Shown here: positions 20,145 to 62,411 of the stretch, piece after piece
Layout of the letters: each line of letters begins with the position of its first letter
Numbering within the stretch: the stretch's first letter is position 1
Assembly: GCA_002368735.1 (NCBI GenBank)
Contig: DFEQ01000029.1
Span: 1-62,411 of the forward strand
Length of the DNA stretch: 62,411 bases
Direction of reading: 5' to 3'
Source: Christensenella sp. UBA3798
GTDB taxonomy: Bacteria; Bacillota; Clostridia; Christensenellales; CAG-1252
Made by a program: the position numbers and the translations under genes
The notes under the pieces: generated by a model
Seen by the model: the letters and a program-made list of their open reading frames with translations, nothing else
The model's database searches: none
What the model was told of the DNA's origin: nothing

Positions 20145-20173
20145 TATGAAATCGATTGGAGGCACATACGCTT

Positions 20174-33316: not shown

Positions 33317-33340
33317 CGTCTGATATATTCCAAGATGACG

Positions 33341-33370
33341 GGACGCGCCATGCGGTGCGTCCTTTTTTAT
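33341..33370 (+). terminator. intrinsic terminator isolating the esterase gene from the giant gene
   Basis: GGACGCGCC-atgc-GGTGCGTCC (9 bp including one G.U pair) followed by TTTTTT. Confidence 0.75.
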
Positions 33371-33770
33371 TCAATAGTCCCTACAAGCCCCTAGGCTCGC
33401 ATTCTTGCCGATGCAATGCAAAAAGTCCCTTAATAGCCCCTAGGAGTCCCTTAAAATGTCGTGTCGATCGGGTCATCGGCTCGTGAATGTATTGTCCGTT
33501 GATTTATTTTGTTGATCTACGCATCCTTTCGTGTCCGCTTATCGCGCCTGTTTGCGTTTGCTCGCCCGCCGATAAGCCCTCCCACGCTTGCACTTTTTCA
33601 AGCTTTTCTCTTTTTTCTTATTTTGTCGTAGCAGTGCGTATTTCGTCCCTTTTATTTGCTTTTTGTCGGGCAATTTACGATCGGAAAAGGCTTTTGATTA
33701 AGATTTCGATAAGGGCTCGTTAAGTTTTATTAATAGGAATTATTTTATAAATAAGATTACGTACTTACCA

Positions 33771-33800
33771 TTGAACTTTCCATTCATAGAATGGTACTAT
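33771..33800 (+). promoter_or_regulatory. promoter candidate for the giant gene
   Basis: TTGAAC (33771-33776), an 18-nt spacer ending in TGg, then TACTAT (33795-33800). This leaves a 5' UTR of roughly 65 nt before the RBS. Confidence 0.3.
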
Positions 33801-33871
33801 GTTTGCAGGTGTTTACGCGTACGCATAATGCGAAGCGTCAAACGGCAAACAAACAGTTACAGGAGGCTGTT

Positions 33872-33949
33872 ATGAGCAAACGGAAAATTTCGATTTTGAT
33901 ACTCGTCTTACTGATGGTGGCGCTGGTCGCGTTCACATTCGTTTCTTGT
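33872..33949 (+). other. lipoprotein signal peptide of the giant protein (MSKRKISILILVLLMVALVAFTFVSC)
   Basis: Basic n-region, hydrophobic core and lipobox-like FVSC, with the Cys codon at 33947-33949. Confidence 0.75.
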
Positions 33950-36900
33950 AGTAAGAAAACGATGGAATTGACAGTCACCGACGTCAAAGCGGTCTACGAC
34001 GGCGCTGCGCACGCTGTCGAGGTGTCGTGCGATACGGGCGACACTTCGGGCTGGACTATCTCGTATGAGAACGAGAATGGTGAAGTCACCTCCAGCCCCG
34101 TCAACGCCGGTAAGTATACGGCAACGGTCACCTTTGAGAAGAAAGGGTACAACACCGCCGTCGCTACCGCCACGTTGACCATCTCGCAGGCTACCCCGGA
34201 GGTGTACAAGTGGCCTACCTTGGTTTATAACTATCCCGAGGCGGCACCCACCGAGCGTCGCGAGGTATACGGCACGGCGATGTCCGACAGCTGGCTCTCT
34301 GTCACCACTCTTGACGAGAGCAATTACGAAGAGTATGCAAGCGTTCCCGGCACTTTCTCCTGGTCTGCCGGCGAAAAGCTCTCTGCCAAGACTGCCGCCT
34401 ACGACGTCACCTTTACTCCTGCCGGTTCGTCGAAGGATAGCAACAGTTATTACAACAATTATAAGAAAAAGTATCTCAAAAACACCGATTTCGGTAAGCT
34501 TCCCATCACCGTCCTGCCCGTTACTCCTGTACTTTACGGCGCCGACCAAGCGGAGCAAGAGAGGAATAAGCCTACCACCACCTATACCGGCGGCACCTTA
34601 GTCAGCGGTACCAAGCTTAGCTTGGTCAAGCTCAATAAGGCGAGGTCCACTTCGACCGAAACGAGGCACGGCTACGTCGTTCCCGGCACCAACGAAGAGA
34701 TAAGCGGCACCTACCGTTGGGGACATTTGGATGCGGAGGGCAACCCCGTCTATCACGACGAGCTCACCGTCCACGTGGCAAATAACGATATCCCGTACAC
34801 CTATCTTTTCGTTCCCACCAACCTCGTCGATCATAAGATCGCCGTAGGCGAACTCAAGGTCATCGCCTCCAAGGCAAACGTCGTCGTCGATACTTCCGTC
34901 ACGATCTCGGCGACCGACATTATGTTCGGGCAGAAGCTCTCGCACAGCACCTTTACCGTTAACGGCAACTACATAAGCAACTCCTATTACGGCACCTACG
35001 CCTGGGTCGAGCCCGATTATATCCCGACCAAGGTGGGCGAGACTATCGTATACCTGTCCTATTCTCCCTTGACACAGTCGGGTGAAGAAGACCCCGAGCT
35101 CAATGGTACGCGCGATATCCCCGTCAAGGTCAACGTCACTAAAGCTAAGCTTTATTTCGACGGCTTGCAGGTCTTCTCGGCGGGCGAGACCAAGCTCGAG
35201 AGCAGTATTTTCTACGGTGATAAGCTGGAGACCTATGCCCTCAGGTGGGATAGCGTCTATTATATAGACGAAGGCTTTGACCAAAACGGTAGGCTCTACC
35301 CCGACCAAAAGCACTATCTCAATACGGACGTTAACGACCCCGAAGTATTGGGCTTGACGTGGAAAGATACCGTAAGCGAGGTCAATAATACCTATTTCGT
35401 GCAGGTGAAGACCACCGACGATCTCACGGGCTATAATATCCCGAGCGACCTTGAAGACCGCTATCTCAATACCTATTACTTCCCCCTCGAAGTCACCCTT
35501 TCCGAGCGTGCGGAAGAGTTCCTCTTCGACAGTGTTGCCGACCTCATCTTCACGGTCAAGAAGATCGATGTCAATACCAAGACCAAGAACAGCGAGAAGG
35601 AGTTCGGCGCTCTCGAGACCGTAGCCTTCGGCACGCCTCTTTCGGCAGTTAAGCTGCCCACCGATGACAAGTTCACGATGTGGGCTACGTCGGGTCAGGT
35701 TCGCGGCACCTTCACGTGGGTCGACGATACCATCTATCCCGGTATGCCCGAGCAGAGCGATTCGGATAATATTTACGTAGACGAACAAATCCTCGATTAT
35801 TACACTTATTCGGAGAATAATCAGACGGTCAGGAAGCCCATCTACGCCACCTATTATAAGGCGAAGTTCACTCCCGACCCCGAGCATTTTTCAAATTATC
35901 AGGACGTCTTCGTCTTCTTCCGCGTGGACGTTTCGAGCGCGACGAGCCTCACCTTCAGCAATACACCCGGCGTGGGCGAAGCCACTGCGGGTGATTCCCT
36001 GAGCGACGTCGAACTCAACACCGATGGCATCAACACCTACGTCGTCGGTTATAAGAAGGTCACGGTCACCTCGCAGGATGCGTTGACCGACCCCAATAAT
36101 AAGCACTATATCCGCAATACGGACGGTAAGTTCGTCTATACGAACGAGTATCAGTCCGGCGTGAGTTATTACGTCGCCGAGAATATCCTTATCGACGGCG
36201 TCATCAACTGGGATAACCCGCAGCAGACCGTCGAGATGAAGACTTCCACCTATTATATCGGCTTCACTCCCGACAAGAAGTTCGCTTCGGTCGTTTCCTA
36301 CTACAAGTATCTCGTGCACCTGATCGTGTACACCAATTCCTCTTGCTTCATCTTGGGCGAGAAGAACGAGAGCGCAAAGACCGCCTACATCATGGGCGTG
36401 AAGGAAGGCATCTCCGCCGACGACATCGAGAACGTCGTCATTCAAGATACCATCAAAGATGAGAACAAAGTCCCCTATACCATTATAGGTATCGCGGGTT
36501 CCACCGACGATAGCCTCGGCGCGTTCCAGGGCAAGGTCGCCATCAAGACCCTCTCGCTCCCCGATACCATCAAGTTCATCGGCAAAGAGGCATTTGCGGG
36601 CTGTACCTCCCTCACCGAAGCGCGTCTCTCCGTCGGGTTAAAGACCATCGGCGACCGTGCGTTCGAGGGGTGTACTGCCTTGACCACGCTCGATATCCCC
36701 GAGTCTTGTCAGTATACCTCTATCGGCGCGTTTGCCTTCAAAGATTGCGTAAAACTCGCCTCTGTCTCCGTGCCTTCCGAGACCGCTACGATCGGTATCG
36801 GCGCCTTCCTCAACTGCAAGGACCTCGTATCCGTCACCATCGACGAGGCGAACGACTATTATCGCCTGTCCGAAAACGGCCACGCCATCTTACGCTTGGA

Positions 36901-57900: not shown

Positions 57901-60900
57901 TGCGTTCATGAACAGCGGTCTCAGGTCCATCACCTTGCCGCAGAGCGTGACCGACATCGCTCCCTATACCTTTATGGGATGTACCTATCTGACGAGCGTC
58001 ACCTTGACCTCTTCGCTTAGGACGATCGGTGAGAGCGCCTTTGAAGGCTGCGACGGCAGAATCGCGCTTGACGATTACTCCTACGTGGAAGTCAGGGGCG
58101 GCAGAGTGTACCTTGTGGATGCGGCGGACGAGGAGAAGACTCGCCTCGTTGAAACCACTACCATCTCGGGCAATACCGCTTACACCGTGGTCAACGGTCG
58201 CAAGATCTACAACGCGGGCGATAAAATCGTCGTGGACGGTCGCTTCGCAGGCACCGTATACGAGGATGCCAGGACGCACGAAGCATACCGCATCGCCTAT
58301 CTGGACGAGAGCGGCCTCAGAGTGGAGCTCTCCAAGGTGAGCGGTGAATATGTCCTCCGCATTTATCCCGCGGACGGCGAGGGTGACTCCTCCGATCCCA
58401 AGTTGACCGACGTGACCAACTTCGAGGATAAGCTTAAGGACTGCAAGATCAACCTCAGCTTCGGTGTCACCAAGATAAACCTCGGCATCCGCGTCACCGA
58501 GATAGGTAATAGGGCGTTCGCCAAGACGGCGATAGAGTCCATCAGCCTGTCCGACAGCGTGACCAAGGTGGGTGACGAAGCCTTTGCCTACAACGAGAAC
58601 TTGCAGAACGTGCTTATCGGCGCGAAACTGAGGACCATCGGCGCAGGCGTCTTCCGCGGCACTCCCAACCTTGCCGGCGTGGACGTCAATAAGAAGAATA
58701 TCTACTTCAAGTCGGACGACGACAAGGTGCTCTATATGGCAAGGTTCGACAAGGTCACGGAGGAAGGCGCAAAGGCTGAGTCCGGCGTGATTTACTACGA
58801 ATTGAACGGCGACTCCTATTCCACCAAGACGGGCTTGACCGTCGGCGAATCCTCCGTCACAGGTCTCTACGAGAAGAATTGGGTCTTGAAACTCTATCCT
58901 GCGGGTCGCGTACCTGCGGGTGACCTCTCCTTCGTCGTGCCTTCCGACGTCGTCGGCATCGATGCGGGCGCATTCTACGATTGCAAGCTTGAGCGCGTCA
59001 TCATACAAGACAGCGTCAAGAATATCGCCAAGGGCGCCTTTGAGGATGCAGGTTACTTACAGACCGTATTCTTCGACGCCGATCTGACCATCGCCGCAGA
59101 CGTCTTTGACGGAACGAGCGTGGAGCTTGACGTGCCGATGTACGGTACCCTCGCGGCGAATTGCGCGGGCAACTACTTCACGGGCGACGTCACCTATAAG
59201 ACCCATACGCCCAAGAGCTGCTTTACCTACGAGGTCAACGGCTCTACGGTGAAGATCACGGGCTTCAAGGGCGGCTGCTCTCACGACCACGCCAACCTCA
59301 TCATACCCGACTATATCGACGGTTGCAGGGTCACTAAGATAGGTGCTCTTGCCTTTGCTCACTGCGAGATAGAGTCGCTCACCCTCCCGCTCCTCCTGGA
59401 CGAGATCGGCGACGGTGCGTTCTATGATAACGATATCACCGCCATTACCTTGAAGGGCGAGGAAACGGAGGACGACTACGAGGCATACAGCGAGAACGAT
59501 ACCTTCAAGGTCGCTAAGGTCTACGGTGATAAGAATATGACCGAGGATAGCGCTCTCTACACCCTGCTTTACAACAAGGTGGACGGCGTACTCATCCTCT
59601 ATCTCGACGGCAAAGTCGATATTGACGGCGAAGAGACGGCTTTGAAGCTTCCCGACGGTATTACCGCCATCGGCTTCGGCGCATTCTACGGCACCGAGAA
59701 GATAACGGCGGTGGATCTCACGGGCGTCACCACTATCGGCACCGCGGCGTTTATGGATTCCAAGGTCAACGCCGTCAGCGGTCTTGACAAAGTATCTACC
59801 GTCGGCGACAGCGCCTTTGAGAATACCGAGATCACGACGTTTGCCTTCGGCTCGGGTGTGTCGAGTATCGGCGCGGCTGCCTTTGCGGGTGTGGACGTTA
59901 CCTCCATCACCTTTGGCGGTGAGGGCGTGTATGAGAACCGTTTCTACCATTACGAGAACGATTTGTTGTTCGCCTATGTCGATAGGACGGAGATGAAGAT
60001 GTCATTGCACACCGTCTTCAAGGCGTATCTTGCAAACGTCGGCGCTAATTATCTCACCGTTCCCGATAGCTTCGAGACGGATGATAAGGGTGAGACGGTT
60101 ACGTACCTGCTCTCCGACATCGGCGCGTATGCCTTTAAGAGCCTTGACTTCGGCATGACCTACGATTACAAGCTCAATAAGGACAAGGTCTTTGACGCGA
60201 GCGCTACCTACTATAAGCTGGATAACGGCGTTTACTCCGTCGTCGAGCTCACTCAGGAGACCTACCTTGCGAAGAAGTATTACAACTACGTCGGCACCAG
60301 AAACGGCGTTATACTCATCCCGTCGGCAAAGGATCTGACCGTCTCCGAGGGCGCTTTCGTCAACGACACCATCAGAGAGGTGCACTTCGAGAGCAGGGTG
60401 GACGCCATCGAGGGCGGTACGTATTTCGACAAGGATACCGTCGTCTACTATCCGCAAGGCTCGGCGATAGCCACGGCGCTCACCGCTTCCGGTCATACCG
60501 AAGCGCTTGCCTTCACGCCCAAATCCTACCTCGTCTACGACGATACGGAGTCTGAGACGGAGATAAGGATAACGGGAGTCAGCGGCAGGGTGCCCGACCT
60601 TGTTATCCCCGCATTCGTGGATGGCAAGCTGGTCACGGCGGTGGGCACTGACAGCACGAATTCCGACTTTGGAACAAGCGGAGTCACTCGCCTCGTCATC
60701 ACCGACCGCGTCATCGAGCTCGGTAAGTACGCCTTCAAGAACTGCACCACCTTGACGGAGGCTACCATCGGCGCGGGCGTCACCGAGATACCCGAGGGCT
60801 TCTTCCTCAGCTGTTCTCTCTTGAAGACGGTGACCTTGTCCGAATCCGTCACGACCATCGGCGCCGAAGCGTTCAAGAGCACCATCTTGACCAAGATACC

Positions 60901-62411
60901 GGTCGCTGTGGATGAGTTTGGTGAGGCTAACGTCACTGAGATAGGCGCTTCCGCCTTTGAGAACGTGAGGACCATCACGGAGATCAAGTTCTGGAGTCTG
61001 CCGCTTGACGAGAATAAGCAAGAGCAGAAGCTCATCGTGGGCGACGCCGCCTTCAAGAACTGCAACAACCCCGCCATCGTTATGATAGACGTTCCCTCGT
61101 GGGTCCAGCTGGGCGCCGGCGTCTTCTACAGCAAGGCGAACAATCTCTCCTACCTCCTTTTTGAAGGGGATCAGTTCGCTTTGGAAGAAGATGATGAATA
61201 CGAATCGCCGGAGGAGAAGGCAGAGGCGTTCGCCAATGCGGCTAAGGCAAATATGGAGCTTTGCTTCGTGAACCTCAATAGCCCGAATTTCAGCAAGGTC
61301 AGCGTGCCCATGAGCGCAACGAGGCTCAGAGCATACTTCACTATTGTTGCGGGCGCAGAGAGCTCCAAATGGGTCAGTTTCACGCCCGACGAGTGCTTCG
61401 AATGGGGCAGTGATAATGAAACGGGCGAAGTAGTCTTGATGGGCTTGAAGACAAATGCAAGCAATTGGGAGAGCGGTCTCAAACCGTACGTCACAGACGC
61501 CGCTTACGGCAACGGCTCCCTCATCATCCCCGAGTATCATAACGGCTTGCCTGTCAGGATCATCGGTACGAGCAACTTGCTCACCGGCAAGTACAATGTC
61601 GATTACGTGACGCATATCGTCATTCCGGACAACGTGACGAAGATACAGCAGAATGCTTTCCGCGTGTATCGTTACGACGGTATGGATCACGATTCCGGCT
61701 TTACTGCGGGAGCCGTAGAGGTGGAGTTCGGAGAGAATACCTTGATATCCTCTATCGGCGACTACGCCTTTAATGGTGTCAAGATCGGCAAGCTCTCCAT
61801 CTCCGGCAAGAATCAACTCACCGTCGGCGAGGAGGCGTTCAGCGGAACGGCGCTTACCGAGTTGAAGATAACCAAGGTGAATCGCGTCGGAAAGAATGCC
61901 TTCTATGGCTTGACTGCGCTCACCAAGGTCGATCTCACCTTCGCGGGTGATAACGCCGTGATCGGCGAGTCTGCTTTCGCGCTCGAGAGCAACGTGTCGG
62001 GTTCCGCCACTCTCGTGGTCAGAGGCGCCCTCTCCGAAATAAGGAAGAACGCCTTCAAGAATAACGATTTGGGCATTTGGAGATTTGAGGCGAAGGCGGA
62101 GACGATAGGAGGATCTGCCTTTGAGAATTCCAAGGTCACGGTGGTGCCCTCCAACGCGGTCACCATCGGCGACTACGCCTATAGGAATGCGACCATCCTC
62201 GACAAGTACGGTAAGGGTGACGTCGTCTTGAAAGACGTTGACTCGGTCGGTAAGGCGGCGTTTAGCGGCAGTACCATCACGAGCTTCACCTTTGGTAGCA
62301 AGATGAAGACCTTCTATGCGGACGACTCCGCTGATAACGGCTCGCTCCATAATACCGTGAAGCTTGCGACTATCGCTTACGGCGGCGGCGACGTTTCGAA
62401 TCCGTACTTCG
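33872..62411 (+). CDS. giant BspA-type leucine-rich-repeat surface lipoprotein (at least 9,513 codons; 3' end beyond the window)
   Basis: The ATG at 33872 follows AGGAGG (33861-33866) by 5 nt. I read the frame (positions congruent to 2 mod 3) codon by codon to 62411 and found no stop. It is not in the ORF track because there is no stop in the window. No track ORF on the plus strand lies in this frame. The translation shows a lipoprotein signal peptide, Ig-like repeats, then well over 100 units of the BspA/LRR_5 pattern (IP.SVT.IG..AF..C..L..V). Confidence 0.92.
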   Translation, partial: MSKRKISILILVLLMVALVAFTFVSCSKKTMELTVTDVKAVYDGAAHAVEVSCDTGDTSGWTISYENENGEVTSSPVNAGKYTATVTFEKKGYNTAVATATLTISQATPEVYKWPTLVYNYPEAAPTERREVYGTAMSDSWLSVTTLDESNYEEYASVPGTFSWSAGEKLSAKTAAYDVTFTPAGSSKDSNSYYNNYKKKYLKNTDFGKLPITVLPVTPVLYGADQAEQERNKPTTTYTGGTLVSGTKLSLVKLNKARSTSTETRHGYVVPGTNEEISGTYRWGHLDAEGNPVYHDELTVHVANNDIPYTYLFVPTNLVDHKIAVGELKVIASKANVVVDTSVTISATDIMFGQKLSHSTFTVNGNYISNSYYGTYAWVEPDYIPTKVGETIVYLSYSPLTQSGEEDPELNGTRDIPVKVNVTKAKLYFDGLQVFSAGETKLESSIFYGDKLETYALRWDSVYYIDEGFDQNGRLYPDQKHYLNTDVNDPEVLGLTWKDTVSEVNNTYFVQVKTTDDLTGYNIPSDLEDRYLNTYYFPLEVTLSERAEEFLFDSVADLIFTVKKIDVNTKTKNSEKEFGALETVAFGTPLSAVKLPTDDKFTMWATSGQVRGTFTWVDDTIYPGMPEQSDSDNIYVDEQILDYYTYSENNQTVRKPIYATYYKAKFTPDPEHFSNYQDVFVFFRVDVSSATSLTFSNTPGVGEATAGDSLSDVELNTDGINTYVVGYKKVTVTSQDALTDPNNKHYIRNTDGKFVYTNEYQSGVSYYVAENILIDGVINWDNPQQTVEMKTSTYYIGFTPDKKFASVVSYYKYLVHLIVYTNSSCFILGEKNESAKTAYIMGVKEGISADDIENVVIQDTIKDENKVPYTIIGIAGSTDDSLGAFQGKVAIKTLSLPDTIKFIGKEAFAGCTSLTEARLSVGLKTIGDRAFEGCTALTTLDIPESCQYTSIGAFAFKDCVKLASVSVPSETATIGIGAFLNCKDLVSVTIDEANDYYRLSENGHAILRLDNEGNFSILHTYFASNAALSYVIEPEITTIGAYAFAGNTTLVGKVIAKNVTHIEEYAFAGATSLTYAYFMVDDVVIDEQETTFEGNEHVIVYGPEGSVVIKAFCAAAHLEFKEQTFVRYLGLIQADPNYVSTFKTTVDASGNATIVGFSKGEYLPANDLDAEGFAARIYADYSELDFYYVDTVKKAYVFADSYDEDYVAAGGKYYYYAQFDENTGNPSTELIIPAYISQEAISPLYELPPECDGYARVTKVMGFGSTNITKLVIPDTVTEISDRAFERCTSLTEVTLSAALTTIGKNAFYGCTSLRSVLLPESLTTIGDNAFNNCTSLKSASFEGDVANLGADIFYYTPVEIYGPEEGNVKTYCQSHGYTYNAGTRTSCFYYEKNEAGTQVKITGLKSHNCKDGHSNIIIPATIEGLPVTEIADEAFKNNLQLVSITIPASVKKIGSGVFSGCSNLMSADSGTNPYYHFESLVVGTRLEYIVMYSGSGDTLISYFAASKAEIFEVPETVTKIASGSFAGATNLTDIVIGAGVSSIAADAFNGCTNLSNIDISSNNRYFSTDSKAIYNKNGTKLITYLSYNSSDLYEIKAGVETIGERAFYENTVLRRVVIPTSVSVIEASAFYGANRLISVTVKGNLTSIGNNAFAGDVSLLSFYVEEDVAALGKDVFAGDTSMIIYSPNGENLGLYAYRNHLRFNNCYSAESFATNGDSEKVTITGLKLNYVESDPEKKLYISIPPYIDGARVCAIGQEAFSEYGIGEIARLNSIYIPDTVETIGSKAFYMCSDLTSVYFGGNMRYEDIATDAFDGIVKKNLNFYFATESSLYLEFMNNADDEYKDNVRLVDLHNCLEYAPGNEAWTVTGQSQHICTESHNFVSVPAKYTGDVVENEERVTKTYFVTVVKDAAFIGNNKIYTVEFESSSEEGASLAIGKSAFKDARGLTSVTFASHTTSIGSDAFRNDVKLESVVLPEKLTYIGSNAFAGCTSLTSVFFTSDVAGLSGYVFGNAEERNPDLVIYGPGGGELETYCNNRGYAFKAWTVSYYLNEWKDIDASTCELVKCREGQDDLESVVIPYSHNNKKVVKIGNKAFSDGTANGSDKYANIKEIIIGEGVEEIGEMAFAYTGITSITIPASVKKIGSRAFFGCTDLTEIYFKGDILTDGMQYLVSTGKKLNVFGPANSNLERYFAKYPLITYNAYTMPSCFEVEVSEDNENEVYISGLKDHYCASGHTNIDIPDYINGKKVVGIKWHAFVGHTEIYGLSIPSTLTDIETGAFYGCTGLKNVKVSSDNPAYKYLDGALLSMNGKKMYICLSSEVEYTVPEGVTEILDGAFDGAINMEVLILNEQVSKIAPDAFKGCDNLANIAVPEQNPNFVFTGGALFNKDQTLLYIYLYTSRYKSYDVPDTVTEVADAAFRKAGALEQIRFYSDVIVGDKIFGDEDDIHAAVYAPAGSYNLEKAAIYAGLEFYNDITPCFSYEVSDLGVTITGFSCLDHAHDEINIPLYIENKPVIAIGEDAFAENGDKGGYIEVAVTADTFVRGKYYTQLINYQELVVAEEYSEELYYADGTGPIFVDEDNFYNDTYYVMKVYDLIYVPAESYNEFNMYYLPFRGVRIGDNVTRIESGAFRGSNLRSVVIGSSVESIAADAFEGANSLTEVYFKSDIDLSGAFTGLNNADLTVYFTEDCTHLYDYFDAMFTAYDPEEETGEPGSVVLLSSLEDNTNCFIYADGDPTRIVGLKDHVCLTAHDDVVIPAHVTAIGDNAFENNKEIIRLTFSAGMTSLGSGALSGCTRLTEIVIDEANPYFAFKDGVLYGKEGDELKTLIFYTAKNTATSYTVADGITRIATGAFYGNEYLRTITIGKDVTLVDDNAFVACTALQNIYVHEANEKYVSTAKYGDGAVGVLYEVKSRKADDTVDKAALVAYPAGARATYVTVGGSFDVNEVKSGAFNSAKYLTLVYFETYVGYMGEEGIFDNFTHFDSLKVCLPIGAGANSFASYLTTLGIETLRYTSKEALTFERNTSGYTVTGVNDAAFIKSNTSMDISASPLNAEAINGYFLFGGKKLIKVPLYYNGLPVNEIADYAFAVKEADASLSVASTIEKVSIAGSVSVIGVGAFANMDALTEIELAANPISGATSSYVFENGVLYTSLNKDVLHTYLSSNSYEVVNFAGPILIEVEEEATTPDNSEENAENEESDEDENEEEGGSDEEPAPQSNVRYEESNVTTIEGNAITFRGVRKILAGAFNGNDAVKEISLNAGIAEIGDGAFSLTTALVDIIVSSDNENYRFEKAITARNEEGAPVLTGGLFNKDLSLLHTYLYTNNYDSVILTEVGIGSGLTHIGGRAFEGTKVSRVRLPDSILVVGDYAFKDMTNLKYLYFESSPAEDKLGIDIMGNKAEFENTDRKILVYGPGGEDRASNVNSYSSVQKYFVDNYAEESEATTHVRYIAWTEDEAFNYLLVKTSDNRGVATILSMTADAAFDYGYGYKEIVVAPYLKKDGVRYDITTIGAEAFKNRVEIKSLTLLYSVTEIAEGFVKGAYNIEDIFINDNDAYRVLQNDETYASGIVYTRDMTTLMAYMPMNAPRYINTNYTAFPVPSSVKRIAAGAFAGAKHLIKISFGENVTEIGAGAFADCEYLNDIVISSANQSYRFDGYTLYNYDMTLLHTYLATGGGNNGVGNYVVPQGVTEIAPYAFEGNDRLEYIRIPEYLTEGDTVTSATIVGYCAFANMNSLSEVFFENLVEIGTDAKELAGSEVTDEDRVNNETYVAENAKMTAIKVTTTLYHYNDAESYVAVGDLSEDVFNATKAQLYYKVAGQYESAENTTFDANVVYYTRLDRREEVFVGKNSFKWGEDFTAAGLNVYALYEGNGSHLLTEDEYTVDASGYNKYAAGTYRIIVTSKANSAYSTYYDVTVEPIKDIFGELAGGKTVTVYAPQSSYLNHVAEMHSAVVYVPYTPKQCLDLTLTEDGYVINGFNTEEDPCVLDATDYVNENYVTKGDHSTLTVPSYINNTPVYKIADGAFYASDLTSVKLLQGVEVIGKRAFEKSLQLKRVELSSTVSEIGAGAFLYLNALDSFTLVNNGYFFLKDGALYGEGGTLLHTMFNAFASEVFETEEAVERIEDRAFEGVSTIRYLTVPYTTTHVGEKAFKNMEDLEEIYFCTDMDTDVEHGYIASDALSGCMVGLQLFGPKGVYLESFANKSGVIYVAWNDASCFEYKFYTKSVEITGLVAAGHEGCSGGYHDDVVIPMYIGGVKVTSIGAGAFKDEDKLTSVVIPTSVTSIGERAFEACTSLAYVTIPYSVKTIGDNAFASCSSLDEVVFNTDAITLGKDVFISAKSTMILYSENKRGEVSKYATAYSIPFNTGTPYTCFLTSTIMNSSGTSTIRVDGLKKHKCKYEHKEVIIPNLIRGKVVQKIKSGAFAGLTNLEKLVISAYIDDVGTGTFNGCEKLTTVDISADNEYLAINNGLIYTADGKTLLAIVDSIAGNNVTLADSTEKVQSNALYGSAVVTLSLNNELTTIGSGAFGGANSLTAITVGEDNKKFSSEDGILYNKSKTALIAYPAGITSEYYIVKDGVIVIGAGAFGGAASLKSVVLPVSVSSISQNAFYGASNLIDIQVNGAISTVDKGAFEATAPTLVVTGVSDDNAQAVGALEIFCTENNVRFMAITPSTCFTYTTEGMPAGTAKVTGLQPHKCTHHVNVVVPMYIDGLRITAVGDRAFAHQQQLVSIVIPQTVTNVGVAAFAGCKNLTSVYLGDSVSYIASKAFTSTESLTEVFITSGDFKVSNDAFYNAGYNDLTVYLDRALTEVISVIEDDNGIRIASIEEIVCLRDHYSVVNGNEIKITGLSSHVCPSGHNALIIPETIDGKVVTAIADDAFLNNHTVVKIYLPATVKKIGESAFMGASKLYDIAFYYYDENGSFVESDHNDYFAMDGGALYSADFKTLYAYMTARSEVEMNVNRNARYVKSHAFYNAANLLSITFLEDIYDSSNIKSSALEGVNQNLIVYVPTDTSEVYEGLIDGADTMYQLKAISGHSVYNATDYFTYEYLDDEENTVKITGITGEYKTELGTSYADATLVIPQYINGRKVSTIADKAFVGLKFGAVVFPDGLTRIGEMAFANWTNLSNVVFPSSLQTLEKMAFSGCSNMYEAYFLGAATALGDSIFNNTMNVAFGAKRNFTAFGPTTTYMTEYFEEKGVEYNACTSVLCFNYEVLDNGMVEIHSIKDHVCNANHKVVHVPDKINGREVDSIDGNTMFKGLTTVETVTLPDNMTSIPAGLFKNCSSLVSVNMPSGLMSIGAGAFENCVSLDSITFSDNLSLIGEYAFKNCHGLTDIIIPSSVYNIHEGAFSGCSGITRIMLSRSVTSISAHLFDGCSSLETLYYRDANGMTKNGLSTGISSVGEYAFYGCSSLRGIFSGDYEVLSTIGEKAFAYSGIESFTIYSSITSLGEGAFAGCNDLTLEDGGNEIYSLEDGIIYQSETIKAVKETDSGEGDNTFSITGDQKDFFYSTADSGEYMLVSGEHPDYFGPATYTNYGKNDSTPKNSGWISYSYYSDNGSAAVLGHYTGSTTWSSDTDYSTTYFEGTNVEEHFEITNSSTVKWRDTGKTFYRQLGAGTYTVSVSFDWAHNEYRNDGSSYGGLGGSTKRAHDIYSYTFTFKINTVNKVWYYNLQPNEEGNDQDEEAANILQHAATNMPTDAVELKRSVLQPNSYFLGDPEDPHFAFDEKQGTVSVNLKKNSEFLNMKGHLIVFFEVSDGSENFITTARCYKLSSVVNNTFKQHVTIHTVSANLSGPLEIDCKDGLSVVIKDEETDYCVRGPEMPNGTENVTKIAYTSGYVKITTGATTLFANTTADAVSKGLITIVSLEGKFQVEYDLTAIKRLSGAGANATIRFYTNETYTDAVDDGYTYNLATPTANAGAYAAYISVTAEFNGTTIYGKKEGDLYRFNNNDLADAIATMDAAGAILAVRTISEFALEGCSSLDSLSIGKAVDSIGAGALINTQGIAEIGVHEQNEYFVLHKINANDPQYAYSGGGLYRKLTGVNEGKTELIAFLGSNTVTEFTLPDHCIMIGDYAFSHNTTIERVYLNKVTTLGKKAFYGCTSLKYMELPAGWSPSGGYKYGERVFEGAGLESVYFEGDFRYTAQIGDMLFGENYDVTIYTKYDDGILAGYCADYNGRSLRVYKMTALNDFAYQTVNGNEIEIMKYLGDDENVIVPDMIENKKVTAIGDAAFEGTNVVTVNLPAYITLIGDYAFSDAKSLKELYVNSDPSIKQNLFNNHSSALIVYGITASILDEYCESIGVAFNLGTTWGCFHYETGAVGGGAKITGLVDHVCNSSHKHIVIPSEIHGYTVTEIDENAFNARTKAEGERAMYRAIESVTIPSSVKVIGKGAFANNSSLKVMRFQNTTISSIGANYYDLSGNLCNTFGDNAALIVYAAEFESTEVRDFCTENAIEFHAVLNINNVTYEEINGSYAITHVSSTDKSIILPDMIGGKKVTEIAKFAMQSKDYASVKLGKYVTKIGEHAFDNCEKLKVIDLPEGLKTIGELAFNGCKSLTAIFIPSSVQTIGDKAFAECTGLKTLRFLGDVKNIGANLLYGVTMTYASVGSTGSVKTVPFLQIRSSATNLDTYFRNKLSVRATKVENMDDYRRWEECYEYMVDVDEYGEVCIDITGLKDHICVNGGHGDILIPGQIGGIKVRKVADKAFAGEKTIRSVTFELISNEGLSQIGKQAFSGCELLGKVNLGPVQLIGDGAFEYCKLLSTIISPFGSVSTIADNTSAGMAGVFAGCENLKSIEGLTNSNPLYASNGVIYFGAGNTRIARYVYDLSAEVLNLDKATSVDPKAFDSIDKAGVRIINIPETLTALSYAMIKDFKNLEEINVAGAFRLSNVPNATTSVPDPLYDMMFYVPIGKTVLGIADDHLTRINDPAHFNYVPVEKDGVIVGVEIKANDAFGASSMAGGTLVLPHYGYVDGVSYPVIGIAERGFAGKTAIISIDPLHVTYIGVEAFEGCTELVTAKLYEGKVDKLEEIRADAFSGCSALKYVYLGKALTFIDGNPFGSCSIDQKAGSVFAIDADNPYYTSKVDGKNTNMILSKDAVTLYASYATGDVVVPDGVVRILSGAFKGAGITSITIPTSVRSIAVDAIVRCSDLTRLTILSENLTMGEYVRGKGGNGIVTKDECAASFTVFGVEGTIVESYAKWFDDDKEAMPFRAVISTGALTIAGGVVLKADISKLGKVVIIPTEYYEGIEMKNITEIADSAFYGAKQVEEIYLSAYHLTKIGKAAFAGMTSLKKVVFFDDGDYARFRELVIDENAFAYSYSLNEVHFETYTRNMSIAATAFRSSGSNLTIYAPNLINELNDLAALQGVVATCEVSYYGMLSIEALNANEAKLVGIRERYVEDGRIKNRATYEDYAGNGAYFYYEGSTLTSVIDSDTGLLKDYDSYDANEKFYQQVGLGGNLYIPEYIAGMQMVAVDIADPDTLSGIKKLFLPDSIRSISAGSFSNTMLTEVLLPDGITDIGEGAFKAKSNALHIYYDGDALDANVFASSAYTVYVHTGATIDHPRTGVEKVAVTPASYFTYTVFNGREVEITGLKGAGLSEKNVVIPTYLKGRKVTSIGDGAFAHDANLKTLTISKYITEIGNSVFVGTFENIEYVTSPFILFEEGSNSFVIEHVANRDLLLLREKGDDYTTIYAVFSVLKSEDDEESVALNFSVPTSVTEIREGAFAGAYSLRKVYGNTYYRAEAENTALVKLVESEYVENSSSNVLLAVLRTCESLEIATGNVYRVGAYAFYGATMEKIIGIPSTVTELGEGAFENCSALTSVELPEGISYLPARVFYGCSRLTGISIPDGVNSIGEFAFGKSGLISIDLTALDNLSKIGESAFAYCEALRTVSFVGTNVVSIGKDAFRGCSDLMDIDLFTTVNAETGAKTSNLEEIGEGAFAGTAITSIVLPENVTAISDKMFEGATFLREISALGAVETIGDYAFHGASSLLGIPDSILPTLRTIGEGAFMNSGLRSITLPQSVTDIAPYTFMGCTYLTSVTLTSSLRTIGESAFEGCDGRIALDDYSYVEVRGGRVYLVDAADEEKTRLVETTTISGNTAYTVVNGRKIYNAGDKIVVDGRFAGTVYEDARTHEAYRIAYLDESGLRVELSKVSGEYVLRIYPADGEGDSSDPKLTDVTNFEDKLKDCKINLSFGVTKINLGIRVTEIGNRAFAKTAIESISLSDSVTKVGDEAFAYNENLQNVLIGAKLRTIGAGVFRGTPNLAGVDVNKKNIYFKSDDDKVLYMARFDKVTEEGAKAESGVIYYELNGDSYSTKTGLTVGESSVTGLYEKNWVLKLYPAGRVPAGDLSFVVPSDVVGIDAGAFYDCKLERVIIQDSVKNIAKGAFEDAGYLQTVFFDADLTIAADVFDGTSVELDVPMYGTLAANCAGNYFTGDVTYKTHTPKSCFTYEVNGSTVKITGFKGGCSHDHANLIIPDYIDGCRVTKIGALAFAHCEIESLTLPLLLDEIGDGAFYDNDITAITLKGEETEDDYEAYSENDTFKVAKVYGDKNMTEDSALYTLLYNKVDGVLILYLDGKVDIDGEETALKLPDGITAIGFGAFYGTEKITAVDLTGVTTIGTAAFMDSKVNAVSGLDKVSTVGDSAFENTEITTFAFGSGVSSIGAAAFAGVDVTSITFGGEGVYENRFYHYENDLLFAYVDRTEMKMSLHTVFKAYLANVGANYLTVPDSFETDDKGETVTYLLSDIGAYAFKSLDFGMTYDYKLNKDKVFDASATYYKLDNGVYSVVELTQETYLAKKYYNYVGTRNGVILIPSAKDLTVSEGAFVNDTIREVHFESRVDAIEGGTYFDKDTVVYYPQGSAIATALTASGHTEALAFTPKSYLVYDDTESETEIRITGVSGRVPDLVIPAFVDGKLVTAVGTDSTNSDFGTSGVTRLVITDRVIELGKYAFKNCTTLTEATIGAGVTEIPEGFFLSCSLLKTVTLSESVTTIGAEAFKSTILTKIPVAVDEFGEANVTEIGASAFENVRTITEIKFWSLPLDENKQEQKLIVGDAAFKNCNNPAIVMIDVPSWVQLGAGVFYSKANNLSYLLFEGDQFALEEDDEYESPEEKAEAFANAAKANMELCFVNLNSPNFSKVSVPMSATRLRAYFTIVAGAESSKWVSFTPDECFEWGSDNETGEVVLMGLKTNASNWESGLKPYVTDAAYGNGSLIIPEYHNGLPVRIIGTSNLLTGKYNVDYVTHIVIPDNVTKIQQNAFRVYRYDGMDHDSGFTAGAVEVEFGENTLISSIGDYAFNGVKIGKLSISGKNQLTVGEEAFSGTALTELKITKVNRVGKNAFYGLTALTKVDLTFAGDNAVIGESAFALESNVSGSATLVVRGALSEIRKNAFKNNDLGIWRFEAKAETIGGSAFENSKVTVVPSNAVTIGDYAYRNATILDKYGKGDVVLKDVDSVGKAAFSGSTITSFTFGSKMKTFYADDSADNGSLHNTVKLATIAYGGGDVSNPYF
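33950..36534 (+). other. N-terminal non-LRR region: degenerate Ig-like/MBG-like repeats
   Basis: A first module with VYDGAAH...NAGKYTATV...ATLTISQA. Then recurring G-T-[FY]-x-W ... F-T-P units near 34350, 34706, 34990 and 35704, plus VINW near 36200. Confidence 0.55.
36535..50329 (+). repeat. protein-level array of BspA-type LRR cassettes (first block)
   Basis: Repeating 22-26-aa LRR units are grouped into cassettes. Each cassette ends in a ..[IV]YGP.G....Y-like tail and restarts with ..CF.YE...ITG....IP..I.G..V..I...AF. Confidence 0.85.
43409..43524 (+). other. acidic low-complexity linker inside the giant ORF
   Basis: Translation reads EVEEEATTPDNSEENAENEESDEDENEEEGGSDEEPAPQ. Confidence 0.8.
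50330..51765 (+). other. roughly 480-aa non-LRR insert in the giant ORF (beta-rich/Ig-like?)
   Basis: The LRR periodicity is lost here. Sequence is rich in Y/T/S/N/G (GAGTYTVSVSFDW, NAGAYAAYISVTAEF). Visibly more A/T-ending codons, and the antisense shadow ORFs fragment in this stretch. Confidence 0.6.
51766..62411 (+). repeat. protein-level array of BspA-type LRR cassettes (second block, continues past the window)
   Basis: Same LRR unit and cassette-junction pattern as the first block. The last readable residues (...DNGSLHNTVKLATIAYGGGDVSNPYF) are mid-cassette. Confidence 0.85.

What the first reader, a model, noticed from the sequence alone, without database searches (positions are those of the whole stretch)
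36535..62411. Architecture: about 28 complete BspA-like cassettes fused head-to-tail in one frame
Each cassette looks like a whole stand-alone BspA-type protein. It has an entry strand (..CF.YE....[IV]TG....[IV]IP..I.G..V..I...AF), several LRR units (IP.SV..IG..AF..C..L..V), often an internal ..NP.[YF]...DG.L[YF].. element, and a tail (..[IV]YGP.G......Y/F.....F). I count roughly 27 junctions; tails or entries lie near 37170, 37960, 38925, 39345, 39935, 40410, 41225, 41920, 42835, 44100, 45665, 46430, 46895, 47785, 48265, 48880, 49405, 52335, 52715, 53165, 53760, 55415, 55905, 56520, 59135, 60440 and 61390. The cassettes are strongly diverged at the DNA level. The longest near-identical stretch I noticed is 34/36 nt (38201-38236 versus 40271-40306). 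So this is not a recent tandem amplification or an assembly stutter. It looks like an old, diversified array, which suggests many different binding specificities on one molecule.
Basis: seen in the sequence. Interest (0 to 1): 0.75.

Follow-up and report, generated by a model that had tools for sequence, protein, structure and literature searches.

The report
Giant surface protein of 28 leucine-rich-repeat domains
One gene of an uncultured rumen Clostridia bacterium encodes a lipid-anchored surface protein of at least 9,513 residues built from 28 complete, strongly diverged BspA-type leucine-rich-repeat domains in a fixed order that related species share, which makes it most likely a very long multi-site adhesin and an extreme case of a widespread but little-described architecture.

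Summary
Frame +2 is open from 33752 to the window end. The gene starts at ATG 33872, not 36535, and gives 9,513 residues before the window cuts it. A profile of the junction (C-cap tail plus N-cap entry) finds 25 full junctions, the first entry and one tail-only site.

Each cassette is a complete capped LRR_5 domain. AlphaFold2 gave pLDDT 92 for cassette 3, and Foldseek matched PcpA, 4GT6, 4H09 and 4OJU. Stand-alone proteins use the same grammar. Orthologues in other rumen Clostridia MAGs align collinearly at about 60% identity, against 21-31% in long alignments between cassettes (up to 46% over short stretches). A relative with only 50% DnaB identity keeps cassettes 1-7 in order, so the array is ancient.

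Duplication versus fusion cannot be resolved. Tandem capped cassettes are common; only this family and P0009 exceed 20 among the 150 best-scoring proteins. Half the N-caps carry a conserved Cys...His-x-Cys-x3-His motif. An adhesin role is inferred.

The parts
33340..33373 (+). Intrinsic terminator of the upstream esterase gene. It isolates the giant gene as its own transcription unit.
   Evidence: 10-bp stem with 7 G-C pairs, followed by a T run.
33765..33871 (+). Promoter-like hexamers (33765-33792 and 33802-33829) and an AGGAGG Shine-Dalgarno sequence 7 nt before the start codon. They lie in an AT-rich intergenic region of about 500 nt.
   Evidence: No Rfam riboswitch was found. The sites are consensus matches only.
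33872..33949 (+). Lipoprotein-type signal peptide, MSKRKISILILVLLMVALVAFTFVSC, with a lipobox cysteine.
   Evidence: A Cys-containing lipobox is also present in the homologues L004 (FVSC), L008 (LAAC) and P0009 (MSAC).
33950..36343 (+). N-terminal non-LRR region of about 800 aa made of repeated 'G.F.W....Y.V.F.P.D..NY' beta-domains. It is MBG/Ig-like and is the presumed stalk.
   Evidence: No Pfam hit. There is a weak match to an 'MBG domain-containing protein' (P0008, E = 1e-4) and one true homologue, P0007 at 44% identity. Identity to the L004 orthologue is 54-56%.
36344..49492 (+). Cassettes 1-17, each a capped LRR_5 domain. Nucleotide starts are 36344, 37253, 38033, 39005, 39437, 40019, 40496, 41306, 42053, 42923, 44243, 45755, 46514, 46982, 47888, 48356 and 48998.
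   Evidence: Junction profile and boundaries. Pfam LRR_5. AF2 model of cassette 3 with pLDDT 92. AF2 model of the end of C12 + C13 + the start of C14 with pLDDT 81.
43430..43540 (+). Acidic low-complexity linker (EEEATTPDNSEENAENEESDEDENEEEGGSDEEP) inside cassette 10.
   Evidence: Read from the translation.
49493..52432 (+). Cassette 18 (980 aa). It carries a non-LRR insertion of about 480 aa (roughly nt 50300-51760) inside an NPxY..DGxLY hairpin.
   Evidence: Pfam finds nothing significant in the insertion. The insertion is conserved in the orthologue L003 at 57% identity.
52433..61393 (+). Cassettes 19-27. Nucleotide starts are 52433, 52799, 53255, 53825, 55520, 56000, 56597, 59219 and 60527.
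   Evidence: The region is collinear with the orthologue L003 at 59.6% identity in a single HSP.
61394..62411 (+). Cassette 28, cut by the window end. The orthologue implies about 305 more residues, including one last Cys/His-rich entry-like element and no LPXTG or transmembrane anchor.
38033..38130 (+). Example of the Cys...His-x-Cys-x3-His N-cap motif (cassette 3: SCFYYEKNEAGTQVKITGLKSHNCKDGH). The motif is present in 14 of the 28 cassettes.
   Evidence: All four residues are conserved in the orthologue in 7 of 7 covered cassettes and in the distant L008 equivalents of C3 and C7. The 'CF' Cys and the HxC..H loop co-occur with odds ratio 44.

Best explanation
The region is a single chromosomal gene (33872 to beyond 62411) of an uncultured rumen Clostridia bacterium that is Christensenellales-like. 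It encodes a protein of about 1 MDa that I expect to sit on the cell surface.

A lipoprotein signal peptide should export the protein through Sec and tether its N-terminus to the membrane by a lipidated cysteine. About 800 residues of Ig/MBG-like beta-domains then form a stalk. After the stalk come 28 autonomous BspA/TpLRR-type (Pfam LRR_5) domains, strung head to tail.

Each domain has four parts:
- its own N-cap, a beta-hairpin 'CF.YE..V.ITG' followed by 'V.IP..I.G..V..IG..AF';
- 2 to about 20 LRR units of 23 residues;
- optional NPxY..DGxLY hairpins;
- a C-cap, a strand 'VYGP' followed by a helix.

Half of the N-caps carry four conserved Cys/His residues that probably hold a structural metal ion.

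The cassettes differ from one another as much as unrelated LRR_5 proteins do. Even so, each is kept in its position in related species. I therefore propose that every cassette presents its own conserved binding surface, and that the whole molecule works as a long multivalent, multi-specific adhesin or tether to other cells or to host or plant material.

Shown: the gene structure, the cassette grammar, the domain fold, the antiquity of the array, its collinearity and the purifying constraint. Inferred: lipidation, surface exposure, metal binding, ligand binding and adhesion.

The confidence of 0.6 is for the whole statement including the adhesin role. For the architecture alone (one gene, 28 capped LRR_5 domains, ancient fixed order) I would put it at about 0.95.
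For: - Single ORF with LRR_5 matches throughout.
- 27 junctions and 28 cassettes.
- Cassette 3 is one confident domain, pLDDT 92.1 and pTM 0.87, with an N-cap hairpin, a solenoid and a C-cap helix. Its best Foldseek matches are the adhesin PcpA (4CP6), 4GT6 and 4H09 at probability 1.0.
- The three-cassette model does not superpose on one continuous solenoid (rmsd 13-19 A). One cassette of it matches the 143-aa 4OJU at TM 0.8 and rmsd 2.5-2.9 A.
- Stand-alone proteins have identical grammar (P0275 and P0159).
- The signal peptide and lipobox Cys are conserved in four homologues.
- No LPXTG occurs in the window portion, and the orthologue's C-terminus shows no LPXTG when read.
- Orthologues L004 and L003 are collinear at 59.8% and 59.6% identity in single HSPs, against 21-31% for long off-diagonal alignments.
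- In L008, whose DnaB is 50% identical, the best hits of C1-C7 fall in order.
- Per-cassette orthologue identity ranges from 42% to 82%, which indicates cassette-specific constraint.
- The variable LRR positions are 60-71% identical between orthologues despite about 3 bits of entropy between paralogues.
- Synonymous sites are equally diverged in DnaB and the giant gene, while amino-acid identity is 88% versus 63%. The gene is therefore fast-evolving but constrained.
- The Cys/His residues are fully conserved in 7 of 7 cassettes.
- Established knowledge (from my own knowledge, not checked here): T. forsythia BspA, T. denticola LrrA and S. pneumoniae PcpA are LRR_5 adhesins.
Against: - There is no experimental or expression evidence.
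- No ligand is known for any cassette.
- The C-terminus is missing from the window, and I could not recover it.
- The AF2 loops that contain the Cys/His residues have low confidence (pLDDT < 50).
- The position-specific conservation analysis rests on only 20-71 sites per position.
- A monoderm cell wall has to be crossed by an N-terminally anchored protein. The stalk role of the first 800 residues is conjecture.
Confidence: 0.6

Rival explanations
1. Scaffold rather than adhesin. The 28 distinct LRR domains act like the cohesins of a scaffoldin. Each recruits a specific partner protein of the same cell, such as an enzyme or another surface protein, and so assembles a large ordered extracellular complex.
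For: - The fixed order and cassette-specific conservation across species fit non-redundant partner sites.
- Some small LRR_5 proteins found with cassette 3 also carry dockerin domains (PF00404 in P0178, P0238 and P0243). This shows that LRR_5 modules take part in cellulosome-type systems in related organisms.
Against: - Pfam detected no cohesin or dockerin in the giant protein.
- No candidate partner genes are clustered with it. The window upstream is housekeeping, and downstream in the orthologue lie type IV pilus assembly genes.
- Characterised LRR_5 proteins bind foreign cells or host proteins (my own knowledge).
Confidence: 0.15
2. Passive structural fibre or surface coat. The protein mainly builds a long spacer, capsule-like fringe or barrier, for example against phages, protozoan grazing or host factors. 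The individual LRR surfaces would have no specific ligands, and the cassettes diverged by drift under fold-only constraint.
For: - Size is at least 9,513 aa.
- pTM is 0.70 across three consecutive cassettes, which suggests fairly fixed inter-cassette packing and hence a semi-rigid rod.
- Cassette lengths and insertions vary widely.
- Overall amino-acid divergence is about 3 times that of DnaB.
Against: - Under fold-only constraint, the exposed variable LRR positions should be much less conserved between orthologues than the scaffold positions. They are still 60-71% identical.
- Some cassettes are 78-82% identical while their neighbours are 53-58%.
- Strict conservation of cassette order over deep divergence is not needed for a mere spacer.
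Confidence: 0.2
3. Artefact. The long ORF is an assembly chimera of many separate BspA-like genes, or a run of adjacent genes whose stops were lost. It is not a real single gene.
For: - The window and an independent Logan contig both end within 66 nt of each other inside the gene, so assemblers struggle at this point.
- The orthologue L003 has a frame break between an 8,878-aa ORF and a 560-aa ORF.
Against: - There is no stop in 28.5 kb of one frame, against more than 300 in each of the other two + frames.
- There are no repeated DNA segments that could mis-join reads; the longest exact repeat is 20 nt.
- The same sequence was assembled independently at 100% identity over 19 kb.
- Three other MAGs carry collinear orthologues with uninterrupted ORFs of 8,878, at least 2,622 and at least 2,574 codons.
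- The junctions are protein-coding cap elements with no start, stop or RBS signatures.
Confidence: 0.02

Closest known systems
BspA / TpLRR-type leucine-rich-repeat surface proteins (Pfam LRR_5, PF13306). Examples are T. forsythia BspA, T. denticola LrrA, S. pneumoniae PcpA (PDB 4CP6), T. pallidum TpLRR (6MLX) and the JCSG gut-bacterial structures 4GT6, 4H09, 4FS7 and 4OJU.
   Same: - The same 23-residue repeat, LxxIxIPxxVxxIGxxAFxxCxx.
- The same N-cap start ('VV.P..I.G..V..I...AF' aligns to the start of TpLRR).
- The same fold.
- A secretion signal, which fits a surface location.
   Different: - The known examples contain one LRR_5 domain of about 140-400 aa, sometimes with other modules. 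Here 28 complete capped domains follow one another in at least 9,513 aa.
- Half of the N-caps carry a Cys...HxCx3H motif. That motif was absent from 615 of 681 N-caps in the other multi-cassette proteins examined. It also lies outside the regions that aligned to solved structures.
Other multi-cassette LRR_5 proteins in public metagenomes, for example P0009 (7,944 aa), P0012 (3,958 aa), P0016 (4,012 aa), P0053 (6,193 aa) and P0159 (two cassettes).
   Same: - The same C-cap + N-cap junction. The junction profile hits 4,078 representative proteins at E <= 1e-3.
- 107 of the best 150 have at least one full junction.
- P0009 also has a lipoprotein signal, MBG-like N-terminal repeats and Cys/His N-caps.
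   Different: - Only two of the 150 representatives have 10 or more junctions (P0009 with 27 and P0012 with 10); 16 have 5 or more. This protein has 23 by the strict count and 27 by the relaxed count, and it is the longest of those examined.
- P0009 is not collinear with it cassette by cassette; all HSPs are 22-29% identical. It is therefore a separate giant lineage or a very old split.
Giant bacterial surface proteins and 'giant genes', as in West-Roberts et al. 2023 (bioRxiv 10.1101/2023.11.21.568195) and the Giant1-5 proteins of Apilactobacillus kunkeei (PMC12863079).
   Same: - A very large extracellular repeat protein with a presumed adhesion role.
- The preprint notes gut Clostridia proteins of 10,000-30,000 aa whose domains include leucine-rich repeats.
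   Different: - The Omnitrophota giant proteins that are the preprint's main subject carry many transmembrane regions and SecA-like domains, and the Oscillospiraceae class it describes is built of RCC1 repeats. None of these features is seen here.
- Typical giant adhesins are built of near-identical tandem Ig-like repeats. Here the repeats are whole capped LRR domains that are only 21-31% identical in long pairwise alignments and have no DNA similarity.
Cellulosomal scaffoldins (tandem cohesin arrays) of rumen and gut Clostridia.
   Same: A long surface protein made of many diverged copies of one protein-binding module. It occurs in the same ecological setting.
   Different: There are no cohesin, dockerin or SLH domains. 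The module type is LRR_5.

Membership tests
BspA-like / TpLRR leucine-rich-repeat proteins (Pfam LRR_5, PF13306) | Match to the LRR_5 profile above Pfam's gathering score | tested here: met
   980 and 1052.6 bits against a cut-off of 27.7, in 25 + 24 stretches.
BspA-like / TpLRR leucine-rich-repeat proteins (Pfam LRR_5, PF13306) | Repeat of about 23 residues with the consensus (L)xxIxIPxxVxxIGxxAFxxCxxL | tested here: met
   The unit profile has the consensus IVIPDSVTTIGEGAFAGCTSLTE. It gives 125 units with score > 0, and spacing peaks at 23 residues. F15 is present in 98%, L21 in 96%, A14 in 88% and I10 in 84% of units.
BspA-like / TpLRR leucine-rich-repeat proteins (Pfam LRR_5, PF13306) | Fold similarity to solved LRR_5 structures | tested here: met
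   The cassette 3 model (pLDDT 92) matches 4CP6, 4GT6 and 4H09 with E from 1e-11 to 1e-9, probability 1.0 and TM about 0.46. A short cassette matches 4OJU with TM 0.77-0.81 and rmsd 2.5-2.9 A.
BspA-like / TpLRR leucine-rich-repeat proteins (Pfam LRR_5, PF13306) | Binding to host or microbial ligands (fibronectin, fibrinogen, coaggregation), as shown for BspA, LrrA and PcpA | not testable with these tools
   This requires recombinant cassettes and binding assays.
Bacterial lipoproteins | N-terminal signal peptide ending in a lipobox with an invariant Cys | tested here: met
   MSKRK-ISILILVLLMVALVAFTFVS-C. My reading is that it fits the PROSITE PS51257-type pattern; I ran no predictor. The Cys is conserved in L004, L008 and P0009.
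Bacterial lipoproteins | Processing by Lgt and Lsp, and lipid attachment | not testable with these tools
   This is a biochemical question.
LPXTG (sortase)-anchored Gram-positive adhesins | C-terminal LPXTG motif followed by a hydrophobic segment and a charged tail | tested here: not met
   No LP.T[GAN] occurs in the 9,513 residues. The orthologue's C-terminal 560 aa (P0001) ends without such a motif (read by eye). The C-terminus of this species itself is missing.
Cellulosomal scaffoldins | Cohesin and/or dockerin modules | tested here: not met
   Pfam finds only LRR families.
Structural zinc knuckle / Cys2His2-type metal site (proposed for the N-cap) | Four conserved Cys/His ligands with fixed spacing | tested here: met
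   The pattern C-x(12-20)-H-x(1-2)-C-x(3-4)-H occurs in 14 of 28 N-caps. It is fully conserved in 7 of 7 orthologous pairs. The first Cys co-occurs with the HxC..H loop at odds ratio 44 (the entries are not independent).
Structural zinc knuckle / Cys2His2-type metal site (proposed for the N-cap) | Ligand side chains converge in space and bind metal | tested here: inconclusive
   In the AF2 models these loops are the weakest parts: pLDDT < 50 in model 1 and about 82 in model 2. Coordinates are not returned, so distances could not be measured.
Giant bacterial proteins (roughly 10,000 aa or more) | A single uninterrupted ORF of that size, confirmed in independent assemblies | tested here: met
   At least 9,513 codons lie in the window, and about 9,820 are expected from the orthologue. 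An identical Logan contig exists. Orthologues have ORFs of 8,878 + 560 codons.

The most novel reading that the evidence does not exclude
The protein is an ordered 'address strip'. Each of the 28 cassettes has its own dedicated, conserved ligand. Cassette order has been fixed since before the divergence of lineages whose DnaB proteins are now only 50% identical, because position along the fibre matters for function, for example through distance from the cell or through sequential engagement of partners. Half of the cassettes are in addition stabilised by a previously undescribed extracellular Cys2His2 metal knuckle in the LRR N-cap. That would make this a new structural subclass of LRR cap and a natural multi-specific binding scaffold.
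Probability: 0.2. Interest if true: 0.7.

Novelty: new variant of a known kind. Interest (0 to 1): 0.45.

Why it matters
BspA-type LRR proteins are among the most abundant predicted surface proteins of gut, oral and rumen microbes, and of Trichomonas and Entamoeba. Even so, very few have known ligands. This gene shows that the unit of evolution and folding is a capped cassette.

Cells can string at least 28 mutually dissimilar cassettes into one lipid-anchored molecule of about 1 MDa, and that string can be kept in order across long evolutionary distances. This gives three things:
- a clear parsing rule, the C-cap/N-cap junction, for annotating thousands of large 'leucine-rich repeat domain-containing' proteins;
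- a natural library of 28 stable, individually expressible LRR domains for ligand screening in the rumen ecosystem;
- a candidate metal-stabilised N-cap variant.

It also warns that such genes are systematically truncated or split in metagenome assemblies and hidden from length-limited homology searches.

Tried and rejected
- **Finding the full-length protein or its C-terminus.**
  - A homologous-protein search with the last cassette returned only the orthologue fragment P0001.
  - A genome-contig scan with the unique insertion alignment A1 found nothing.
  - A metagenome-contig scan with alignment A6 returned only generic LRR_5 loci at 38% identity or less.
  - The true C-terminus of this species therefore remains unknown.
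- **Searching with the N-terminal 860 aa.** This gave only one real homologue. The hit lists of the search for homologous proteins never exceeded about 1.7 times the query length, so that tool cannot reveal giant relatives. The exhaustive representative search was needed for that.
- **First MAFFT alignment of overlapping cassette segments (A3).** It tiled identical overlaps instead of aligning paralogues, so I discarded it and used non-overlapping segments (A4).
- **A second, widened junction HMM.** It absorbed a cassette-specific insertion and was not used for counting.
- **BLAST of the whole protein against itself.** It returned only the trivial hit, so I replaced it with a cassette-versus-cassette BLAST.
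It is not computable. The only same-species sequence is 100% identical. Against the nearest orthologue, four-fold sites are only about 50% identical, in DnaB too, so they are saturated. I substituted conservation by LRR position.
- **Riboswitch or other cis-regulatory RNA upstream.** Nothing reached significance.
- **Pfam for the N-terminal region, the 480-aa insertion and two other non-LRR stretches.** No significant family was found.
- **Considered and rejected.**
  - Phage tail fibre or mobile element: the context is chromosomal housekeeping genes.
  - Minus-strand genes: the long antisense ORFs are shadow ORFs of the + strand gene.
Full report

Yes. Beyond position 35000, + frame 2 has no stop codon at all, while the other two + frames have 372 and 321. 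The last stop in that frame is at 33752.

The first good start is ATG 33872. It lies 7 nt after an AGGAGG and opens with MSKRKISILILVLLMVALVAFTFVSC. From there the frame runs 9,513 codons to the end of the window without terminating.

Pfam finds only leucine-rich-repeat families. LRR_5 ('BspA type') matches in 25 + 24 stretches at E = 6.7e-301 and E = 0.

I built a profile from the tail plus entry region of 20 regex-picked sites and searched the protein with it. It returned 25 full junctions, the first entry and one tail-only site. Their nucleotide positions match all 27 coordinates in the finding one for one.

Taking the Cys/Phe of the entry strand as the boundary gives 28 cassettes of 122-980 aa. 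Together they hold about 125-165 LRR units and 18 'NPxY..DGxLY' elements.

Only five blastn self-HSPs reach E < 1e-5. The longest exact repeat is 20 nt, against 14-17 nt in codon-shuffled controls. A recent amplification or an assembly stutter is therefore excluded.

**2. Corrections to the description**

- The gene starts 2.7 kb upstream of the stated start. Residues 1-26 are a lipoprotein-type signal peptide.
- Residues of about 27-824 are repeated beta-domains with a 'G.F.W...Y.V.F.P.D..NY' signature. They have no Pfam match and only a weak link to an 'MBG domain' protein.
- Several cassettes carry big non-LRR insertions:
  - about 480 aa inside a hairpin of cassette 18;
  - a region at about aa 3740-3920 in cassette 11;
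  - an acidic linker in cassette 10;
  - expanded N-caps in cassettes 2 and 24.
- The last cassette is cut by the window end.

**3. Is it a real single gene, and whose?**

A Logan assembly contig (SRR5322904_129) is 100% identical to the window over 19 kb. It also ends inside the gene, 66 nt before the window end.

The upstream genes are chromosomal housekeeping genes:
- an RNase J-like beta-CASP protein;
- LeuRS;
- UxaC;
- MFS transporters;
- PepF;
- DnaB;
- ACP synthase and ACP;
- an esterase.

A strong terminator follows the esterase gene. An AT-rich 500-nt spacer with promoter-like sites precedes the giant gene, and no riboswitch was detected.

DnaB places the organism among uncultured rumen Clostridia. 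Its identity to relatives is:

| Relative | DnaB identity |
|---|---|
| 'uncultured Clostridia bacterium' MAG SRR873603_bin.166 | 89% |
| 'Christensenella sp. UBA3770' | 86% |
| Goat and buffalo rumen MAGs | 76-77% |
| Goat rumen MAG RGIG3541 | 50% |

**4. Orthologues**

| Locus | Source | What aligns | Identity |
|---|---|---|---|
| L004 | the 89% DnaB relative | an ORF in the same position after dnaB, open to the end of the locus (2,622 codons), aligned to residues 1-2572 in one HSP | 59.8% |
| L003 | ENA ERZ1061184 scaffold_386 | an 8,878-aa ORF, a frame break, then a 560-aa ORF (P0001); its last 3,326 residues align to residues 5664-9225 in one HSP | 59.6% |

P0001 continues to align to the end of the window at position 255 of 560. 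The complete protein here is therefore probably about 9,820 aa. By analogy it ends with one more Cys/His-rich entry-like element and no LPXTG or transmembrane anchor.

Off-diagonal alignments, meaning one cassette against a different one, are only 21-31% identical in these long comparisons. Best paralogue pairs reach 25-46% over shorter stretches.

In the distant relative L008 (DnaB 50%) a giant ORF again follows dnaB. It has a lipobox and the same N-terminal repeats. The best hits of cassettes 1-7 fall at 758, 1053, 1208, 1533, 1687, 1934 and 2056, which is in perfect order.

Fragments of further orthologues from other assemblies match individual cassettes at 45-85% identity, always at the collinear position. 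Examples are P0029, P0020, P0014, P0023 and P0022.

The array and its order are therefore much older than these lineages, and there is no concerted evolution.

**5. Selection**

Against L004, four-fold degenerate sites are about 50% identical in both dnaB and the giant gene. They are saturated, so dN/dS is not meaningful. Amino-acid identity is 88% for DnaB and 63% for the giant protein.

Constraint differs by cassette:
- cassettes 3, 7, 19 and 21 are 72-82% identical to their orthologues;
- cassettes 1, 2, 4, 6 and 20 are 53-58% identical;
- cassette 24 is 42% identical when identity is taken over its full length.

Within LRR units, the scaffold positions I10, A14, F15 and L21 are 93-100% conserved between orthologues. 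The variable positions of the beta-strand face are 60-71% identical. The other variable positions are 43-76% identical, although paralogues show about 3 bits of entropy at those positions (n = 20-71 per position).

I see no sign of an arms-race style diversification. The variable surfaces look cassette-specific and maintained.

**6. What a cassette is**

An AlphaFold2 model of cassette 3, built with 75 aligned sequences, has pLDDT 92.1 and pTM 0.87. It shows, in order:
- an N-terminal beta-hairpin;
- the 'V.IP..I.G..V' strand;
- the solenoid with hairpin excursions;
- a terminal strand-helix-strand cap.

Its best PDB matches are the pneumococcal adhesin PcpA (4CP6), 4GT6 and 4H09, all at probability 1.0 and TM about 0.46.

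A second model covers the end of cassette 12, all of cassette 13 and the start of cassette 14. It has pLDDT 81 and pTM 0.70. It does not superpose on any single long LRR solenoid (rmsd 13-19 A). About 145 residues of it match the 143-aa structure 4OJU at TM 0.77-0.81 and rmsd 2.5-2.9 A. The cassettes are therefore separate solenoid blocks joined by cap-to-cap junctions.

By sequence, the entry 'VV.P..I.G..V..I...AF' aligns with the very start of TpLRR (6MLX).

Stand-alone proteins use the same grammar:
- P0275 (324 aa) is signal peptide + 'FSYSDNKGEITIEKYNGKGGNVVIPEFIEGKPVTEIGRKAF' + LRRs + NPxY element + '...VTIYGYKNSFSEEYSKHNRIPF'.
- P0159 from a Planctomycetia MAG has two such cassettes with the same junction.

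**7. How common is the architecture?**

I searched a 78-position profile of the junction core (alignment A2) against 1.84 billion representative proteins.

| Threshold | Proteins found |
|---|---|
| E <= 1e-3 | 4,078 |
| E <= 1e-10 | 654 |
| E <= 1e-30 | 54 |

Re-scoring the best 150 for near-full-length junctions gave the following.

| Full junctions | Proteins (of 150) |
|---|---|
| at least 1 | 107 |
| at least 3 | 71 |
| at least 5 | 16 |
| at least 10 | 2 (P0009 with 27, P0012 with 10) |

By the same strict count, this protein has 23 junctions.

P0009 (7,944 aa) has a low-GC type amino-acid composition. It shares the lipoprotein signal, the N-terminal repeats and the Cys/His N-caps, but it is not collinear with this protein.

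Tandem capped LRR_5 cassettes are thus a widespread theme. The papers my searches returned do not describe it:
- The TvBspA survey (PMC2843621) treats one LRR region per protein.
- The 'Giant genes' preprint only mentions LRRs among the domains of gut Clostridia giants.

Arrays of more than 20 cassettes appear confined to very few lineages, although fragmentation of assemblies limits that statement.

**8. Duplication or fusion?**

This is unresolved. For cassette 3, 728 proteins of 320-570 aa match at E <= 1e-10. By BLAST, the best of those small external proteins score about as well against each cassette as the best internal paralogue does.

| Cassette | Best external small protein (bits) | Best internal paralogue (bits) |
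|---|---|---|
| C3 | 137 | 119 |
| C1 | 114 | 76 |
| C14 | 114 | 129 |
| C7 | 106 | 119 |

The cassettes have diverged to the background level of the family. Sequence similarity alone therefore cannot tell an ancient internal duplication from serial fusion.

**9. A detail not in the finding**

Fourteen of the 28 N-caps carry the pattern Cys(F)-x12-20-His-x1-2-Cys-x3-4-His, as in 'SCFYYEKNEAGTQVKITGLKSHNCKDGH'.

- In all 7 such cassettes covered by an orthologue, all four residues are conserved. Cassettes without the motif lack it in both species. Cassette 1 lost it relative to its orthologues.
- The motif is retained in the L008 equivalents of cassettes 3 and 7.
- Across 681 N-caps in 150 multi-cassette proteins, the first Cys and the HxC..H loop co-occur with odds ratio 44. 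These entries are not independent. 615 of the N-caps have neither element.
- AF2 is least confident exactly in these loops.

A structural metal site (Zn) is my favoured reading. A disulfide plus histidines is the alternative. The geometry could not be checked.

**10. Mechanism**

Shown: one gene, a signal peptide with a lipobox, 28 autonomous LRR_5 domains, an ancient fixed order, and purifying but cassette-specific constraint.

Inferred:
- Sec export and lipid anchoring at Cys26;
- the first 800 residues acting as a wall-spanning stalk;
- a fibre on the order of 100 nm (my own rough estimate, not computed);
- each cassette offering its own binding surface, so that the molecule acts as a multivalent, multi-specific adhesin, by analogy with BspA, LrrA and PcpA (my own knowledge).

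Rivals are a scaffoldin-like recruitment platform and a passive spacer or coat. An assembly artefact is essentially excluded.

Downstream of the orthologue lie PilC (T2SSF), a PilM-like gene, two unknown genes and another ORF of at least 2,924 aa with a bactofilin-like beta-helix. This may hint at a surface-structure gene neighbourhood, but no link is demonstrated.

**11. Verdict**

The thing itself is an extreme, anciently fixed example of a common but undescribed multi-cassette BspA-type architecture, with a possibly new metal-binding N-cap. It is interesting for annotation and for ligand discovery, but it is not a new kind of system.

Noticed in passing
window 36900-62350, minus strand: The antisense frame of the giant gene has only 19 stops in about 27 kb. 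It therefore produces very long shadow ORFs, for example 53489..59008 (1,839 aa) and 45455..49858 (1,467 aa). These are not genes, but gene callers could report them.
   Followed up: partly
window 62345-62411: The window and an independent Logan contig (SRR5322904_129, 100% identical over 19 kb) both stop within 66 nt of each other. This is about 300 codons before the expected end of the gene. Something just downstream breaks assemblies. The cause is unknown, because no repeat is visible in the orthologue at that point.
   Followed up: partly
L003 9971-10053: The orthologue in ERZ1061184 scaffold_386 has a frame break inside the N-cap of cassette 28. An 8,878-aa ORF is followed by an overlapping 560-aa ORF. 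The window is in frame at that point. The break could be a sequencing error, a pseudogenising frameshift or a real split; this is undecided.
   Followed up: partly
L003 11696-21683: Directly downstream of the orthologous giant gene lie PilC/T2SSF (E = 4e-59), a PilM-like protein (E = 4.8e-5), two ORFs with no Pfam match, and a second very large ORF (at least 2,924 aa by the gene call). That ORF has a bactofilin-like beta-helix segment (E = 4.2e-9).
   Followed up: partly
window 50300-51760 (aa about 5477-5963): A non-LRR insertion of about 480 aa sits inside an NPxY..DGxLY hairpin of cassette 18. It is conserved at 57% identity in the orthologue and has no Pfam family; DUF5025 matches only at E = 0.0098, below its cut-off. 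Its fold and function are unknown.
   Followed up: partly
window 33950-36343 (aa 27-824): The N-terminal region is built of about 7-8 repeats carrying 'G(T)F.W ... Y.V.F.P.D..NY'. It has no Pfam match and only one real homologue in the 5.8-billion-protein search, plus a weak hit to an 'MBG domain' protein. It is conserved in L004, L008 and P0009.
   Followed up: partly
window 10025-12169, 18744-20144, 20156-21520: Three separate calcineurin-like metallophosphoesterase genes lie upstream of the giant gene, interleaved with glucuronate isomerase and an MFS sugar transporter. This may be a sugar-acid utilisation cluster. It appears unrelated to the finding.
   Followed up: no
L071, L070, L028, L055 and other loci: Human-gut and other metagenome contigs recovered with generic LRR_5 patterns contain open frames of 2,500-3,700 codons. 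Large LRR_5 proteins therefore appear to be frequent outside the rumen too. I did not check these frames for LRR_5 content or junctions.
   Followed up: no
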